From assembly GCA_030141605.1 (NCBI GenBank), contig JAQGDQ010000062.1, positions 186,001 through 250,000 on the forward strand: 64,000 nt of DNA, read 5' to 3'. Positions within the stretch are counted from its first letter, which is position 1. Every line of letters starts with the position of its first letter. Source of the DNA: Tubiluchus corallicola (taxonomy: Eukaryota > Animalia > Priapulida). The position numbers were made by a program, and so were the translations under genes. Below the pieces are notes generated by a model. That model did not search any database and had not been told where the DNA came from. It saw only the letters and a program-made list of their open reading frames with translations. Below, piece after piece: positions 28,680 through 48,067 of this stretch.

Positions 28680-28746
28680 ATGGTGATTATTTACAGCTCA
28701 TGGGTTTTGTTTTATTTGCTAACGCTCACAAAGTCTTGCCAACCAG
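28680..28746 (+). CDS. Predicted first coding exon of the TTLL4-like gene, encoding a signal-peptide-like N-terminus
   Basis: Acceptor taccttacag at 28611-28620; ATG at 28680 gives MVIIYSSWVLFYLLTLTKSCQP; donor CAG|gtaaaa in phase 1 matches the phase-1 acceptor at 32743 (G|AA AAG TTC). Confidence 0.7.
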
Positions 28747-31700
28747 GTAAAACTATGGTTAACACCAGTTATACCATAGTTATTATATTATAACGTAAAT
28801 ATAAAAGGTTTCATGACATAATATATTTGTATATAAGTATATTTATGTTCTGTAAGTATGTGTAAATGCAGTGTAAAATAGACCTGTTCTTTTTTGTGGC
28901 ACATAGTTTTTATGTGATTGTGCACTACATATTTATAGTCATAGTAATAAACAATTAAATTAAGAAGTCTTTGTCACACTTTCGAGTGCACATTCATATG
29001 GTTACGCGCTCATTATTCGAACATCTTATAATCGGGGATTAACAAGCACGATATAAATCCGAGATGATATGAATCTAGCTGAGCAAAAAAGTATGCTTAA
29101 TACTAACTGTACACCCCGAATAATGCTACTTTTACAAAAGTTAGATCAATACGACAGCTGTAAAAAGCCATTATTGGAGACGTGCTGATTTGCTTAAGCA
29201 AACGTACAAACACCTAGGTATTTTCTTAACACCTAGATCCTCTGCAAATAATCAACTTGTAAAGATGCAAAAACGTGACAACATCATGTTTCATTTCTGA
29301 AACATGCTATCTTGTCATACATGGACATCAAATAAACGTTTCTGTAGCTTTCACAAACAACTACCTTCACAACGTTTGCAAAAATACCAAGCTATTCTCA
29401 TGGCATATATTTCATTTCTGTTCTTTTAGTCTCGTCATTTGTCACTTCATTCATCAGTACATTATCACTTTAACAATGATAAAAACCAATGTGGCAGATG
29501 CTATAAATAAGTGGGAAATAATCAAGGAGCCCTGGTACTATGACTGCTGCGAAAGATTGATTCATCTAAAATGTACTAAACGGATTATGAAAAATTATCA
29601 TTAGAAATGGATGATAGATTTTGTCGGTTTTGTCAATTTATGTTCCAAAATTGACAAAACAATAATAAACAAAAATGTTTTACTTAGAAGGAAATTATAC
29701 TGATTCCTTTTTCTTTAACCCAATCACTGAAGCGGATGTTATTAAAATAGTTAGATCCCTAAATCCAAATAAGATTGCTGGTTTTGACAACATATTGCTC
29801 AGGATTGTGACTGATATCATTGAACACATCGCAATACCTTTGGTCCATATAATGAATACATCACTTCAGACTGGAATAGCTCTGGTAAACACAAATATTC
29901 TACAGTCATTCCATTATTTAAAGCCTCTCTGTAAGTAATTACAAACCCATATCACTTTTGCCATTTTTTTCTAAAATCTTGGAAAAATTTGTTCATCAGC
30001 AACTGACTACATATTTAATAAAACACGGCATTTTACACAAGTCTCAATTTGGTTTTCCTAAAGCATGCAGTACAGAATTAGCATTGATAACTATGGTTAA
30101 TAATATAGTCGAAAGCCTGGAAAAAATAGCTTTTCTGTTAGGGTGTTTGCGATCTAGCCAGAACTTTTGATACTGTGGATCATGACATTATGATACGTAA
30201 ACTTGAACATTATCGAATTAGAGGTTTGACAAAAACGTAGTTCTTCAATTATCTAACTGGGAGGACTCAGTTAGTAAAATATAACAATACAGTATCAGAT
30301 ATAGCATATGTTAAATGTGGGATTCCACAAGGATCCATTCTAGGTCCGTTACTATTCCTGGTTTACATAATTGATGTCAGGTCTTCATTTTCCACAGGAA
30401 AAAATGTTGCAATTGCAGATAATACCAGCCTTTTATTCACTTTTGTAGACACGTTAATAAAATATTAATACGTTAATAAACAATGAGCTGCATAAAATTC
30501 TCACCCGGTTCAAAGTAAATAAACTCTCATTAAATGCCGATAGAACTGAATACATAGTCTTTAAATCTGTCAGAAAAAGATTGCTGAAACCAATTCTTTT
30601 AGTCCTCGGCGACCAAGTTATTCAGCAAGTAACTGAGACTAAATTCCTAGGCGTATTTGGCAATCACGTAAGCTAAAAGTACTGAAAAATATAGGCGTAA
30701 TGTCTCGTATTAGGAAAAATTTAATCGAAAAAATCTTTCAATGCTATGTAATGCATTAATTCTTCCGTACTTACATTACTGCAATAATCCTGTGTGTCTA
30801 ACTTACCAAACTGAATTGCATTTTCTTAAAACTCTACAACGCAACATAACAAACTGCATTCTTCTTTTTATATAAATCCAGTAAAACAGGTTCAACTTAA
30901 TTATAATTCAATTTGAAATGAATATTACATACCAATTGAATACTTCAACAGTTATCAATGATTAAAAGCATGGAACGAAATTCAGCAATCTCACAAGACG
31001 GGAAATTCAAAACGCAAATAAAGAATGATTTATACAGTTCATAGTAAATTCTTATTTGTGTCCAGTTTCCTTTGTTCTGCAGCAGTCACGGTACATACAG
31101 TCAAAATTCTACTCTAATGTAACTCATTGAATTTAAGCTTGAATTTACAAGCTTAGTGATAATTGTAGCAAGGCATTATTGTTATCATCTATCATCAGTC
31201 ATTCACGACTTCACCGATCTTTCACTGTACTAATCCTTCATCCAAACATTACCTCAACCATAATTCCACTATCACAGTGAGCTCACAAGGCTTCGGCTTC
31301 TGACTTCTCTGTACCCCAAGTAATGATATCAAGTATTTTTGTTATTGATTTGTTATGTATATTGCTTGGGATGGGTGATATAAACTACTGTACATGTACT
31401 ATAAAAAAAAACTACTATACTGTACTAGGTAACTGTAGGCACCTGTGTTGTATGTAAGTATGCATTTTTTGCTGATTTCCAACTTAACCAGTTGGTTTCT
31501 CTCAAGTCCTAATGATCACAAAGACAACTAAGCTGCAAAACTTGTTTCATGTATAGACCAAACAAATGTTGAACTAACTACACCTAGCAAAATAAGAAGC
31601 GCAGATAATTTCTGAATTTGAAAATGAGGCTGAAAAACGCGAGGCCTTCATAACACCATGATCAAGCATCTGGCAACGTCGTCGTACATACTATTTTATA

Positions 31701-46700: not shown

Positions 46701-48067
46701 TGAATATCAGAGACGAGGAGGTTATCAACGACTCTTTCCTAGTCCAACTTCTCATAAATATTTAAAATACTTTGAACAGCACCGATACGGTAACTTGTTG
46801 CTAGATGCTTGGACAAGAAAATACTTCACTACTCCTGAAAAAGGTAACATAAATAGAGTGGAGAAAACGAGTCTAATCTTGGTATAAAGGGAAATAGTAA
46901 ATTTTGAATTTTTTGTTTAATTCAGACGTCATAGTGTAATTAGTAAAAACATTTTATAAGCTAGTGTTCATTAAAATCAACCTAGAGATAAATTGACTGA
47001 ACCTGGCTAGGTTTTTGCAAAAGCACCAAGAACGAAATTAGTTGATAAAAGAGGTCATTTATTAAAATGCGTTCAAAATAGCAAAGCAAAAAAGGTGGGC
47101 ACACTCACATACCACCCACTCTATACGTGAATCCAAGTACTTGACTAATATTAGTCACAATTTTGTGTCTTGCAAGGACGGCAAGGAGTTTTATGACTCG
47201 TGTTTTATAGTAATTCCGTATTAAAATAAACGATTACTTACTTACTGTTATGACAGAGATAATAAAGCGTCCTTTGCACTATATTACAAAATGATGTCAA
47301 ACGCCTAGTAAATCAGTTTTAAGAATTGTGGCACAAAATACAAGCAAAAATTCCACAACACAGAAAATCAGTACGATGGATAAAAATAGTCAAATCTAAA
47401 GGTCAACAAAGTGCGTTTTTCTTTTTTTCGAAATTACATTCCTACTTTATTAGTGGGTGGTGAGAGGGCGGGTTATCACATCCAGCGAATGCGGGCAAAT
47501 GGGTGATTTTCGACAACACGACGGCTGTCATTCGTTGATTTGCATGCTCACGAACATTCCTGACAAAAACTATTCTAGCAATAAATTACCCTTTTTTGTT
47601 AAGAATCGGTGTAATTGCAAACTTTACACGTGCGATAAATTTTATTTTTATAGAAATGTTAATTAAATAATTAACTGTTAATGATAATGTTAATGCTTTT
47701 ATTAACTTGATTCATATCTTTTTTTTTCTGTTCTCGTCAAAATGTTGTAAATTTGAAACAAAATATTTGTAGTAATCACTACAATGTTGTACTTTCCGCG
47801 AACAACTTTTTTTAAGTTCATAACTACGGCGACCTTATCCTAAATGTTTTACCCTATCATAAACATCGTATCCGCATCCAAACTCTATAGTATCTGCGGT
47901 ATTAAAATTATAATTAGACACAGTGTTCTAAATAACCACAATTACTTATTTTAGGTTGGCGCTTCCTAGAGACCTTATGTAAAGAAAACCTGCATATCTA
48001 CAATCCCGTCCTGGTCATGGAACACTTTTGTCTTCAAAGGAATTCCACAGCTTGTGTAAAAATTTGA
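28680..48067 (+). CDS. TTLL4: TTLL4-like ATP-grasp amino-acid ligase (tubulin glutamylase family), 14 coding exons, ~592 aa, with a predicted N-terminal signal peptide
   Basis: In-frame GT-AG exons: 28680-28746, 32743-32919 (PALNPSLFSHVPPTLNFG), 33050-33157 (VEELP...KLLVWK), 34889-34971 (NWIACW...EYQK), 37090-37287 (DHFP...RKD..W...KFG..EFNFSPFTFIVPED...WISKP), 37902-37981 (HGGSMGLGIKVISSWDQ), 38511-38639 (RYISKPYLIDGYKFDLRLYV...GVVRFA), 42061-42183 (HLTN), 42514-42612, 43453-43587 (YSCHELYGIDFIFDENLKPWLLENN), 44319-44444 (LAGYRIP), 45082-45211, 46633-46843 (ILDVLTPSDVRELVEAEDEYQRRGGYQRLFP), 47955-48067 (stop). Motifs follow TTLL4 in order. Exon 1 is joined by phase compatibility, not by homology. 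Confidence 0.88.
29690..30870 (+). mobile_element. Decayed LINE (CR1/L2-like) reverse transcriptase in TTLL4-like intron 1
   Basis: Fragments FFFNPITEADVIKIV..LNPNKIAGFDNI, LPFFSKILEKFV, QFGF, DL..TFDTVDH and CGIPQGSILGPLLFLVYI, with stops and frameshifts. Confidence 0.9.
32068..32225. repeat. (GA)n/(GAGAGT)n microsatellite
   Basis: Directly visible. Confidence 0.95.
33195..33265. repeat. (CA)n microsatellite
   Basis: Directly visible. Confidence 0.93.
33278..34593. mobile_element. Non-autonomous hAT element
   Basis: Perfect TIRs cagggcactttatttatgactt / aagtcataaataaagtgccctg and a perfect 8-bp TSD CGTATGCT (33270-33277 and 34594-34601). Confidence 0.92.
33782..33877. mobile_element. 96-bp hAT-type MITE nested inside the 33278-34593 element
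   Basis: TIRs taggggtgagcat / atgcttaccccta, 8-bp TSD AGCGGCGT, and internal cgaattcgaatcgaaccgaa repeats. Confidence 0.85.
35082..35579. mobile_element. MITE with subterminal ~21-bp repeats and TA flanks
   Basis: taggttttaca..tcaaatgta / tacatttgatatgtaaaaccta termini; caaatgtagac units on the left are mirrored by gtctacatttg on the right. Confidence 0.8.
39060..41585 (+). mobile_element. Decayed RLE-type non-LTR retrotransposon (HERO/NeSL-like) in a TTLL4-like intron
   Basis: RT remnants (SSTPGTDGISY; LIYKKGD..PANYKMIA; QKAFINGCPKH; LEDAFG), then CKHCGNREILCHVLNAC, RYLWRH, PDL, LTVP and EIGSRG restriction-like endonuclease motifs; AATAAA and an A-rich tail near 41558-41585; many stops. 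Confidence 0.85.
43850..43990 (-). mobile_element. Possible tRNA-derived SINE remnant
   Basis: The minus strand reads gggctcgtgggttcaattccggcccaagtc (B-box-like), resembling the head of the element at 49196. Confidence 0.35.
45259..46507. mobile_element. Non-autonomous hAT-like element
   Basis: TIRs cagagacggatta / taatccgcctctg, TSD ttgctgaa / ttactgaa (7 of 8 match), and GC-rich gggcc subterminal motifs. Confidence 0.85.

What the first reader, a model, noticed from the sequence alone, without database searches (positions are those of the whole stretch)
28680..48067. A tubulin-glutamylase-family (TTLL4-like) enzyme that appears to be routed into the secretory pathway
Seen: an exon with a clean acceptor (28620), an ATG at 28680 and a phase-1 donor encodes MVIIYSSWVLFYLLTLTKSCQP. 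It splices in frame onto the exon at 32743, which runs into the TTLL4 core (PALNPSLFSHVPPT...) after only ~36 residues. The spliced ~592-aa protein has N-X-S/T sequons at NQT and NST (both in the short new N-terminal linker), NLT, NIT and a C-terminal NST, plus NFS followed by Pro. Established: characterised TTL/TTLL enzymes are cytosolic, ciliary or nuclear, and vertebrate TTLL4 has a long non-catalytic N-terminus and no signal peptide. Inference: a TTLL4 paralogue swapped its N-terminus for a signal peptide and acts as an ER/Golgi-lumenal or extracellular ATP-dependent peptide ligase on secreted proteins, analogous to secretory-pathway kinases such as FAM20C. I know of no characterised example, but I cannot search to confirm novelty.
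Basis: partly seen in the sequence, partly recalled or inferred. Interest (0 to 1): 0.92.

Follow-up and report, generated by a model that had tools for sequence, protein, structure and literature searches.

The report
Tubulin-ligase offshoot with secretion signal
This 14-exon animal gene encodes a divergent relative of the enzyme that adds glutamate to tubulin, with its ATP-using core intact but its amino-acid pocket rebuilt, and it likely begins with a secretion signal, so it would attach something other than glutamate to proteins in the secretory pathway, which no transcript or experiment yet confirms.

Summary
The gene is real: 14 exons (28621-48067), 605 or 609 aa, collinear with TTLL4 at up to 41% identity. 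All nine ATP, Mg and phosphate residues are kept. The substrate pockets are rebuilt: the initiase Arg is Met, and Lys377 is Ser (Lys in 89 of 89 other relatives) after a 5-residue deletion. The signal-peptide exon is the best first exon, with an in-frame stop upstream, a strong start context and a phase-1 donor. It alone passes combined splice and signal filters among 65 donors, though looser filters give 0.5-1.4 chance hits. No RNA shows the join. The core has few cysteines (3 vs 4-14), low charge (+8 vs +25) and no sequon on its catalytic Asn, which fits lumenal life. The sequon count is not above chance (P=0.28). The strongest-scoring splice at exon 11/12 is frameshifting. One transcript-like relative (P0001) forms a clade with it, but its N-terminus is missing. 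This scan noted similar genes before on other DNA (this genome, a brachiopod, a probable arthropod; unchecked). Verdict: likely a secretory TTLL4-derived ligase, not a glutamylase.

The parts
28621..28746 (+). Exon 1 (first coding): 59-nt untranslated part with a start-stop uORF at 28649-28654 and an in-frame TAA at 28662; ATG 28680; 22 codons; predicted signal peptide (hydrophobic stretch aa 8-16, cleavage likely after Ser19); phase-1 donor. An upstream non-coding exon is implied but was not located.
   Evidence: a second, about 80% identical copy of 28692-28830 in DNA run X1. Join to exon 2 is inferred.
32743..32919 (+). Exon 2: 36-aa linker with sequons N38 and N46, then the start of the TTLL4 core; no in-frame Met, so it needs a phase-1 coding exon upstream
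   Evidence: 64% identity over 22 aa to P0019
33050..33157 (+). Exon 3, N-domain
34889..34971 (+). Exon 4, N-domain
37090..37287 (+). Exon 5: Lys125 and Lys174 equivalents (K159, K210); 1-aa insertion shared with P0001
   Evidence: Pfam TTL E=3.2e-7
37902..37981 (+). Exon 6: phosphate loop; Met216 at the initiase-Arg / elongase-Gln position
38511..38639 (+). Exon 7: Arg219 and Arg241 equivalents (R254, R276)
   Evidence: Pfam TTL E=4.7e-17; TTLL6 match E=1.6e-12
42061..42183 (+). Exon 8: Thr263/Asn264 kept; Tyr265/Ser266 changed to Val/Asp (sequon on the catalytic Asn lost); Lys283 kept (K321); sequon N284
42514..42612 (+). Exon 9
43453..43587 (+). Exon 10: Mg ligands Asp346, Glu359, Asn361 kept (D381, E394, N396); His/Ile362 to Ala, Ser363 to Gly
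   Evidence: Pfam TTL E=7.3e-11
44319..44444 (+). Exon 11: 5-residue deletion and Ser407 at the Lys377 position; two possible donors (GC after 44430, GT after 44444)
45029..45211 (+). Exon 12: starts at 45029 (with the GC donor) or 45031 (with the GT donor); sequon N465; motif shared with P0001
   Evidence: five synonymous differences in one X1 contig
46633..46843 (+). Exon 13: conserved TTLL4 C-terminal lobe
   Evidence: 74% to P0001; 470 hits at E<=0.001
47955..48067 (+). Exon 14: last conserved helix, short tail with sequon N602 and two Cys, stop codon; AATAAA at 48382

Best explanation
This is a TTLL4-derived gene with an intact ATP-grasp core and rebuilt substrate pockets, whose first exon likely supplies a cleaved signal peptide, so the enzyme would enter the ER and likely ligate an amino acid or amine other than glutamate onto carboxyl groups of secretory proteins. 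Shown: exon structure, homology, kept catalytic residues, changed pocket residues, low cysteine count and low charge. Inferred: exon 1 is spliced to exon 2; the leader is cleaved after about residue 19; lumenal ATP (imported by SLC35B1/AXER-type carriers) drives acyl-phosphate formation on an acceptor carboxylate, followed by attack of the donor amine, as in TTLL6; the donor is not glutamate because one of two essential lysines is gone; the acceptor is not tubulin.
For: All nine nucleotide, Mg and phosphate residues named for TTLL6 (K125, K174, R219, R241, T263, N264, D346, E359, N361; paper parts read; N361 mapped) are kept. K377 is Lys in 89 of 89 other relatives but Ser here, and K377A abolishes TTLL6 activity. 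Position 180 is Met (Arg 74, Ala 13, gap 2 of 89). Exon 2 has no in-frame Met and needs a phase-1 upstream exon. Exon 1 is the only one of 65 donors passing the combined filter. Phase-1 introns near codon 20 are typical of animal signal peptides (PMC1626468, passages). Only 2 of 164 Met-starting relatives of 500 aa or more look signal-like by the same heuristic. The core has 3 Cys (4-14 in 85 relatives; P0001 has 2) and net charge +8 (mean +25; 1 of 85 is as low). 82 of 85 relatives carry a sequon on the catalytic Asn264; this protein does not. 7 of 8 listed exonic differences in run X1 are synonymous (P about 4e-4). It forms a clade with P0001 at SH-aLRT 99.
Against: The leader has no charged n-region, is only moderately hydrophobic (KD 2.14) and was scored only by my heuristic. 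Signal-like mini-exons arise by chance at 0.5-1.4 per 8.5 kb under looser filters. The sequon count is at chance. A short N-terminus is not diagnostic: some ordinary TTLL4 entries have 21-90 residues before the core. P0001 keeps a sequon on its catalytic Asn and lacks its N-terminus, so the only relative cannot confirm a signal peptide. The best-scoring donor/acceptor pair at exon 11/12 is out of frame and stops at 480 aa. K283 is kept and two arginines follow Ser407, so glutamate use is not excluded. Low Cys and low charge could simply reflect loss of microtubule binding.
Confidence: 0.62

Rival explanations
1. A divergent but cytosolic TTLL4 paralogue. Exon 2 takes a different short first exon (for example ATG-donor candidates at 26782-26800, 28343-28370 or 31371-31428), or the leader does not work as a signal peptide.
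For: 26 ATG-to-phase-1-donor candidates (21 donors) lie in 24174-32700. The donor at 31428 scores higher (9.0 vs 7.8). Bee TTLL4 paralogues also have altered pockets without signal-like leaders.
Against: The rivals lack a good acceptor (5.9 or less vs 8.6). 26782 lies in a repeat also present at 62673-63221. 31323-31428 begins in a multi-copy stretch of run X1. A diverged second copy of exon 1 and its flanks exists.
Confidence: 0.18
2. A young pseudogene or mostly unproductive copy: the strong GT donor (44444) joins the first AG (45028), shifting the frame and losing the C-terminal lobe.
For: This pair has the best scores (donor 10.1, acceptor 7.7) and gives 480 aa. The in-frame options need a GC donor or a GAG acceptor scoring -6.1, and no micro-exon rescues it.
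Against: No stop or frameshift elsewhere in 14 exons. The GC donor has a near-consensus context (9.6 if scored as GT), and the 605-aa form removes a 4-residue gap against P0001 (score 80 vs 76). Exonic differences in X1 are mostly synonymous, though some may come from a paralogue.
Confidence: 0.1
3. A secretory protein that is still a glutamate ligase (Arg408/409 replacing Lys377), or an ATP-binding protein without ligase activity.
For: K283 is kept; two arginines follow Ser407 in a shortened loop. No model of this protein itself was made.
Against: Four further pocket residues changed (positions 180, 265, 266, 363), and P0001 has hydrophobic residues at the Lys377 region. Full conservation of catalytic residues argues against a dead enzyme.
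Confidence: 0.1

Closest known systems
TTLL4, tubulin monoglutamylase of the initiase type (Pfam PF03133; e.g. Haliotis XP_046371170.2, Montipora XP_068716224.1)
   Same: Collinear over about 530 residues, best 41% identity, including the TTLL4-type core start and C-terminal lobe; all catalytic residues kept.
   Different: No long N-terminal region; signal-like first exon; initiase Arg is Met; Lys377 lost with a 5-residue deletion; Tyr265/Ser266/Ile362/Ser363 are Val/Asp/Ala/Gly; fewer Cys; less basic.
TTLL6 (PDB 6vzq-6vzw; bioRxiv 10.1101/2020.06.07.139295)
   Same: ATP-grasp catalytic set; the model of relative P0001 matches 6vzt at E=2e-24, TM 0.64/0.74.
   Different: No Gln180 or His362 (elongase marks), and only one of the two glutamate-selecting lysines.
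P0001 (unnamed Logan protein, 465 aa, 1976-nt contig)
   Same: 46% identity; shared insertion, shared loop deletion, shared exon-12 motif, 2 Cys, charge +10; clade SH-aLRT 99.
   Different: Keeps Arg at 180, has Arg at 283 and a sequon on the catalytic Asn; its N-terminus is absent from the record.
FAM20C-type secretory-pathway kinases (recalled, not tested)
   Same: Analogy only: an ATP-using protein-modifying enzyme working in the lumen.
   Different: Unrelated fold and chemistry.

Membership tests
TTL/TTLL family (PF03133) | TTL domain above the Pfam cut-off | tested here: met
   3 of 14 exons pass the 20.1-bit cut-off on their own; a fourth scores 13.7
TTL/TTLL family (PF03133) | ATP, Mg and phosphate residues K125, K174, R219, R241, T263, N264, D346, E359, N361 | tested here: met
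   9 of 9 kept (numbering)
TTL/TTLL family (PF03133) | ATP-grasp TTLL fold | tested here: inconclusive
   Shown only for relative P0001 (pLDDT 83, pTM 0.85); the spliced protein itself was not folded
TTLL4 lineage | Closest homology and TTLL4-type N-domain start and C-terminal lobe | tested here: met
   Best named matches are TTLL4; its exact place among TTLL4s is unresolved in a quick tree (support 46)
TTLL glutamylases | Both donor-glutamate lysines (K283, K377) | tested here: not met
   K283 kept (K321); K377 aligns to Ser407, against Lys in 89 of 89 others
TTLL4-type initiases | Arg at position 180 and Ile at 362 | tested here: not met
   Met216 and Ala397
TTLL glutamylases | Glutamylation of tubulin tails | not testable with these tools
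   needs an assay
Classical secretory proteins | N-terminal h-region with a (-3,-1) cleavage site | tested here: inconclusive
   Passes my heuristic (KD 2.14, Thr/Ser site at 17/19), which also fires on 21 of 273 chance exons; SignalP was not available
Classical secretory proteins | Leader present in the mRNA and protein translocated | not testable with these tools
   no RNA holder listed

The most novel reading that the evidence does not exclude
One member of an undescribed class of lumenal ATP-grasp protein ligases, derived from TTLL4 in invertebrates and diversified in their donor pockets, that writes an unknown amino-acid or amine modification (possibly an isopeptide cross-link) on acidic residues of secreted or matrix proteins.
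Probability: 0.45. Interest if true: 0.9.

Novelty: new variant of a known kind. Interest (0 to 1): 0.7.

Why it matters
Characterised TTL/TTLL enzymes act in cytosol, cilia or nucleus (own knowledge; seven searches of the held library, listed no paper on a secretory one, judged from listings only). A lumenal member with a rebuilt pocket would imply a new post-translational modification of secreted proteins. It would also be a natural test of how TTLL donor specificity is encoded. It is directly testable by one RT-PCR and one expression experiment.

Tried and rejected
No whole genome is held, so a separate canonical TTLL4 could not be sought. No RNA holder was listed. X1 behaves as genomic DNA (introns covered, no exon-exon joints); X2 gave 8 short repeat-like matches and none, which is no evidence either way. 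Single-exon word searches found nothing. The P0001 search (120 of 365 hits listed) and the exon-13 search (150 of 470 listed) gave only one family member among 288 proteins compared; unlisted hits may hold more. ESM Atlas: exon 2 was uninformative; P0001 fell with TTL clusters. The metagenome scan gave 3 distant loci at 37-43%, not examined further. Sequon count was rejected as evidence. Short N-terminus was rejected as diagnostic. Conservation of the exon-1 donor in the second copy is only a hint: no listed difference at 28744-28750 against 13 at 28751-28793, P about 0.08, and 14 of 54 rows were hidden. The micro-exon search in intron 11 returned none. The MTAP first exon was not located. The careful tree did not finish, so the quick tree was used. 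P0138 does not group with this gene and is a long branch. Look-ups of earlier findings by place or sequence were blank. Supplementary Fig. 7 of the TTLL6 preprint (family alignment) could not be seen and bears on how invariant the two lysines are.
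Full report
Gene structure. Reading the window gave 14 exons from 28621 to 48067 that translate without a stop into 609 aa with GT-AG introns. Three of the 14 exons pass the Pfam TTL cut-off on their own. 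The model aligns collinearly with named animal TTLL4s at up to 41% identity, and tblastn with three relatives shows one copy in the window and no hit under E=1 upstream of 32850. The host is an unidentified animal with long, repeat-rich introns; no genome is held. MTAP lies head to head upstream, leaving about 8.5 kb for any first exon.

One weak junction. The strong GT donor after 44444 is out of frame with the first AG of exon 12 and would stop at 480 aa. Two in-frame solutions exist: that donor with a second AG two bases on (acceptor score -6.1; 609 aa), or a GC donor after 44430 with the first AG (605 aa). The GC form removes a 4-residue gap against the closest relative, so I prefer it slightly. 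Unproductive splicing or recent decay cannot be excluded.

The first exon. Exon 2 has a conserved core start but no in-frame Met, so it needs a phase-1 coding exon upstream. Exon 28621-28746 has an acceptor scoring 8.6 and a donor 7.8, within the range of the gene's own sites; the matrices were trained on only 12 donors and 13 acceptors. It also has an in-frame stop 18 nt before the ATG and G at -3 and +4. The 22 residues pass a simple signal-peptide heuristic. That heuristic flags both glycosyltransferases in the window and 2 of 164 long relatives, but also 21 of 273 chance donors, about 1.4 per 8.5 kb. So the hydrophobic leader alone is not above chance. Adding acceptor and start-context filters leaves 8 others of 280 donors at the loosest cut and none but this exon among 65 donors at moderate cuts; the cuts were chosen afterwards. 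The one other signal-like candidate with a good donor (31323-31428) has no acceptor and starts in multi-copy DNA. DNA run X1 holds a second copy of 28692-28830 with 26 differences and 5 gaps, plus a piece near 28560, so this exon region is duplicated or strongly polymorphic. An excess of phase-1 introns near codon 20 in animal signal-peptide genes is described in PMC1626468 (five passages read). No RNA was available.

Active site. I read parts 2-4 of 8 of the TTLL6 structure preprint (10.1101/2020.06.07.139295) and mapped its numbering through PDB alignments and a 99-row alignment. All nine nucleotide, Mg and phosphate residues are kept. The donor pocket keeps Lys283 but has Ser at Lys377 (Lys in 89 of 89 other relatives) after a 5-residue deletion, and Val-Asp for Tyr265-Ser266. 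The acceptor side has Met at the Arg/Gln-180 switch and Ala-Gly at 362-363; none of the 89 has Met there. Since K377A abolishes TTLL6 activity, this fails the glutamylase and initiase tests while still looking like a working ATP-grasp ligase. Two arginines beside Ser407 could partly compensate; this was not modelled.

Signs of a changed environment. The core has 3 Cys against 4-14 in 85 relatives, and net charge +8 against a mean of +25, with 1 of 85 as low. 82 of 85 relatives have an N-X-S/T sequon on the catalytic Asn264, harmless in cytosol but likely damaging in the ER; this protein has lost it. Against this, P0001 keeps that sequon, and the total of five sequons is at chance (P=0.28).

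Relatives and constraint. The only family member among 288 proteins compared is P0001 (46%), an uninterrupted 465-aa reading frame on a 1976-nt Logan contig, which suggests a transcript. It shares the insertion, the loop deletion and an exon-12 motif, and groups with this gene at SH-aLRT 99 in a quick 52-row tree whose deeper placement is unresolved. Its model (pLDDT 83) matches TTLL6 best. Its N-terminus is missing, so it cannot confirm the signal peptide. Of the 40 differences listed for X1 (158 hidden), 8 fall in exons and 7 are synonymous, five of them in one contig over exon 12. This indicates purifying selection on this gene or a close paralogue.

Earlier notes. The scan lists similar signal-bearing TTLL4 offshoots in another piece of this genome (said to lack both lysines, whereas this one keeps Lys283, so probably a paralogue), in a brachiopod and in a probable arthropod. 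I could not fetch those sequences. They gave me the lead to check the lysines and are not counted as evidence.

Mechanism. Most likely (0.62) the leader takes the protein into the ER, where ATP is available (PMC6113206, listing and start of abstract only). There the enzyme would phosphorylate an acceptor carboxylate and ligate a non-glutamate amine donor. Rivals are a cytosolic paralogue with another first exon (0.18), a decaying or unproductively spliced copy (0.10), and a secretory glutamate ligase or inactive binder (0.10).

Novelty. Searches of the held library (12 listed; 49: 0; 50: 0; 60: 1; 61: 8; 72: 13 of 14 listed; 78: 20 of 439 listed, none of the 20 holding TTLL4) showed no secretory TTLL by title or abstract start. 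Subscription papers are not covered. The family and chemistry are known; the compartment and pocket would be new. Interest 0.70, limited by the missing transcript.

Noticed in passing
window 11971-13188 (-): Intronless 405-aa glycosyltransferase family 8 gene (Pfam E=2.6e-11) with a hydrophobic N-terminus, likely a Golgi/ER enzyme and possible retrogene.
   Followed up: partly
window 52582-54300 (-): Intronless 562-aa GT2+GT25 protein resembling collagen galactosyltransferase (name recalled), with a signal-like leader; it ends without an obvious KDEL-type signal. The TTLL gene is thus flanked by two secretory-pathway modifying enzymes, which may be chance.
   Followed up: partly
window about 20500-24110 (-): MTAP-like phosphorylase gene (PF01048) head to head with the TTLL gene; first exon not located.
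   Followed up: partly
window about 27520-27980: Tandem array of a 29-nt unit, 15 copies counted, 640 nt upstream of exon 1.
   Followed up: no
window 26348-26914, 62673-63221, 19301-19768: Dispersed repeat, 84% identical between the first two copies.
   Followed up: no
window 29669-30676 and 39385-41063: Decayed LINE-like fragments in introns 1 and 7 (RVT_1 weak hit, E=9e-4, for the first; the second judged by eye).
   Followed up: no
window 28649-28654: Minimal start-stop uORF 26 nt before the main ATG.
   Followed up: no
P0170, P0174, P0177-P0180, P0182, P0183, P0185, P0188, P0190, P0191, P0194: Thirteen bee 'TTLL4' entries have Ala at the initiase Arg and mostly Met at Lys283, so they may not be glutamylases either; no signal-like leader was seen.
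   Followed up: no
P0138: Another very divergent TTLL4-like fragment (ENA, 347 aa) with Asp at Lys283; long branch near arthropod-like sequences; N-terminus missing.
   Followed up: no
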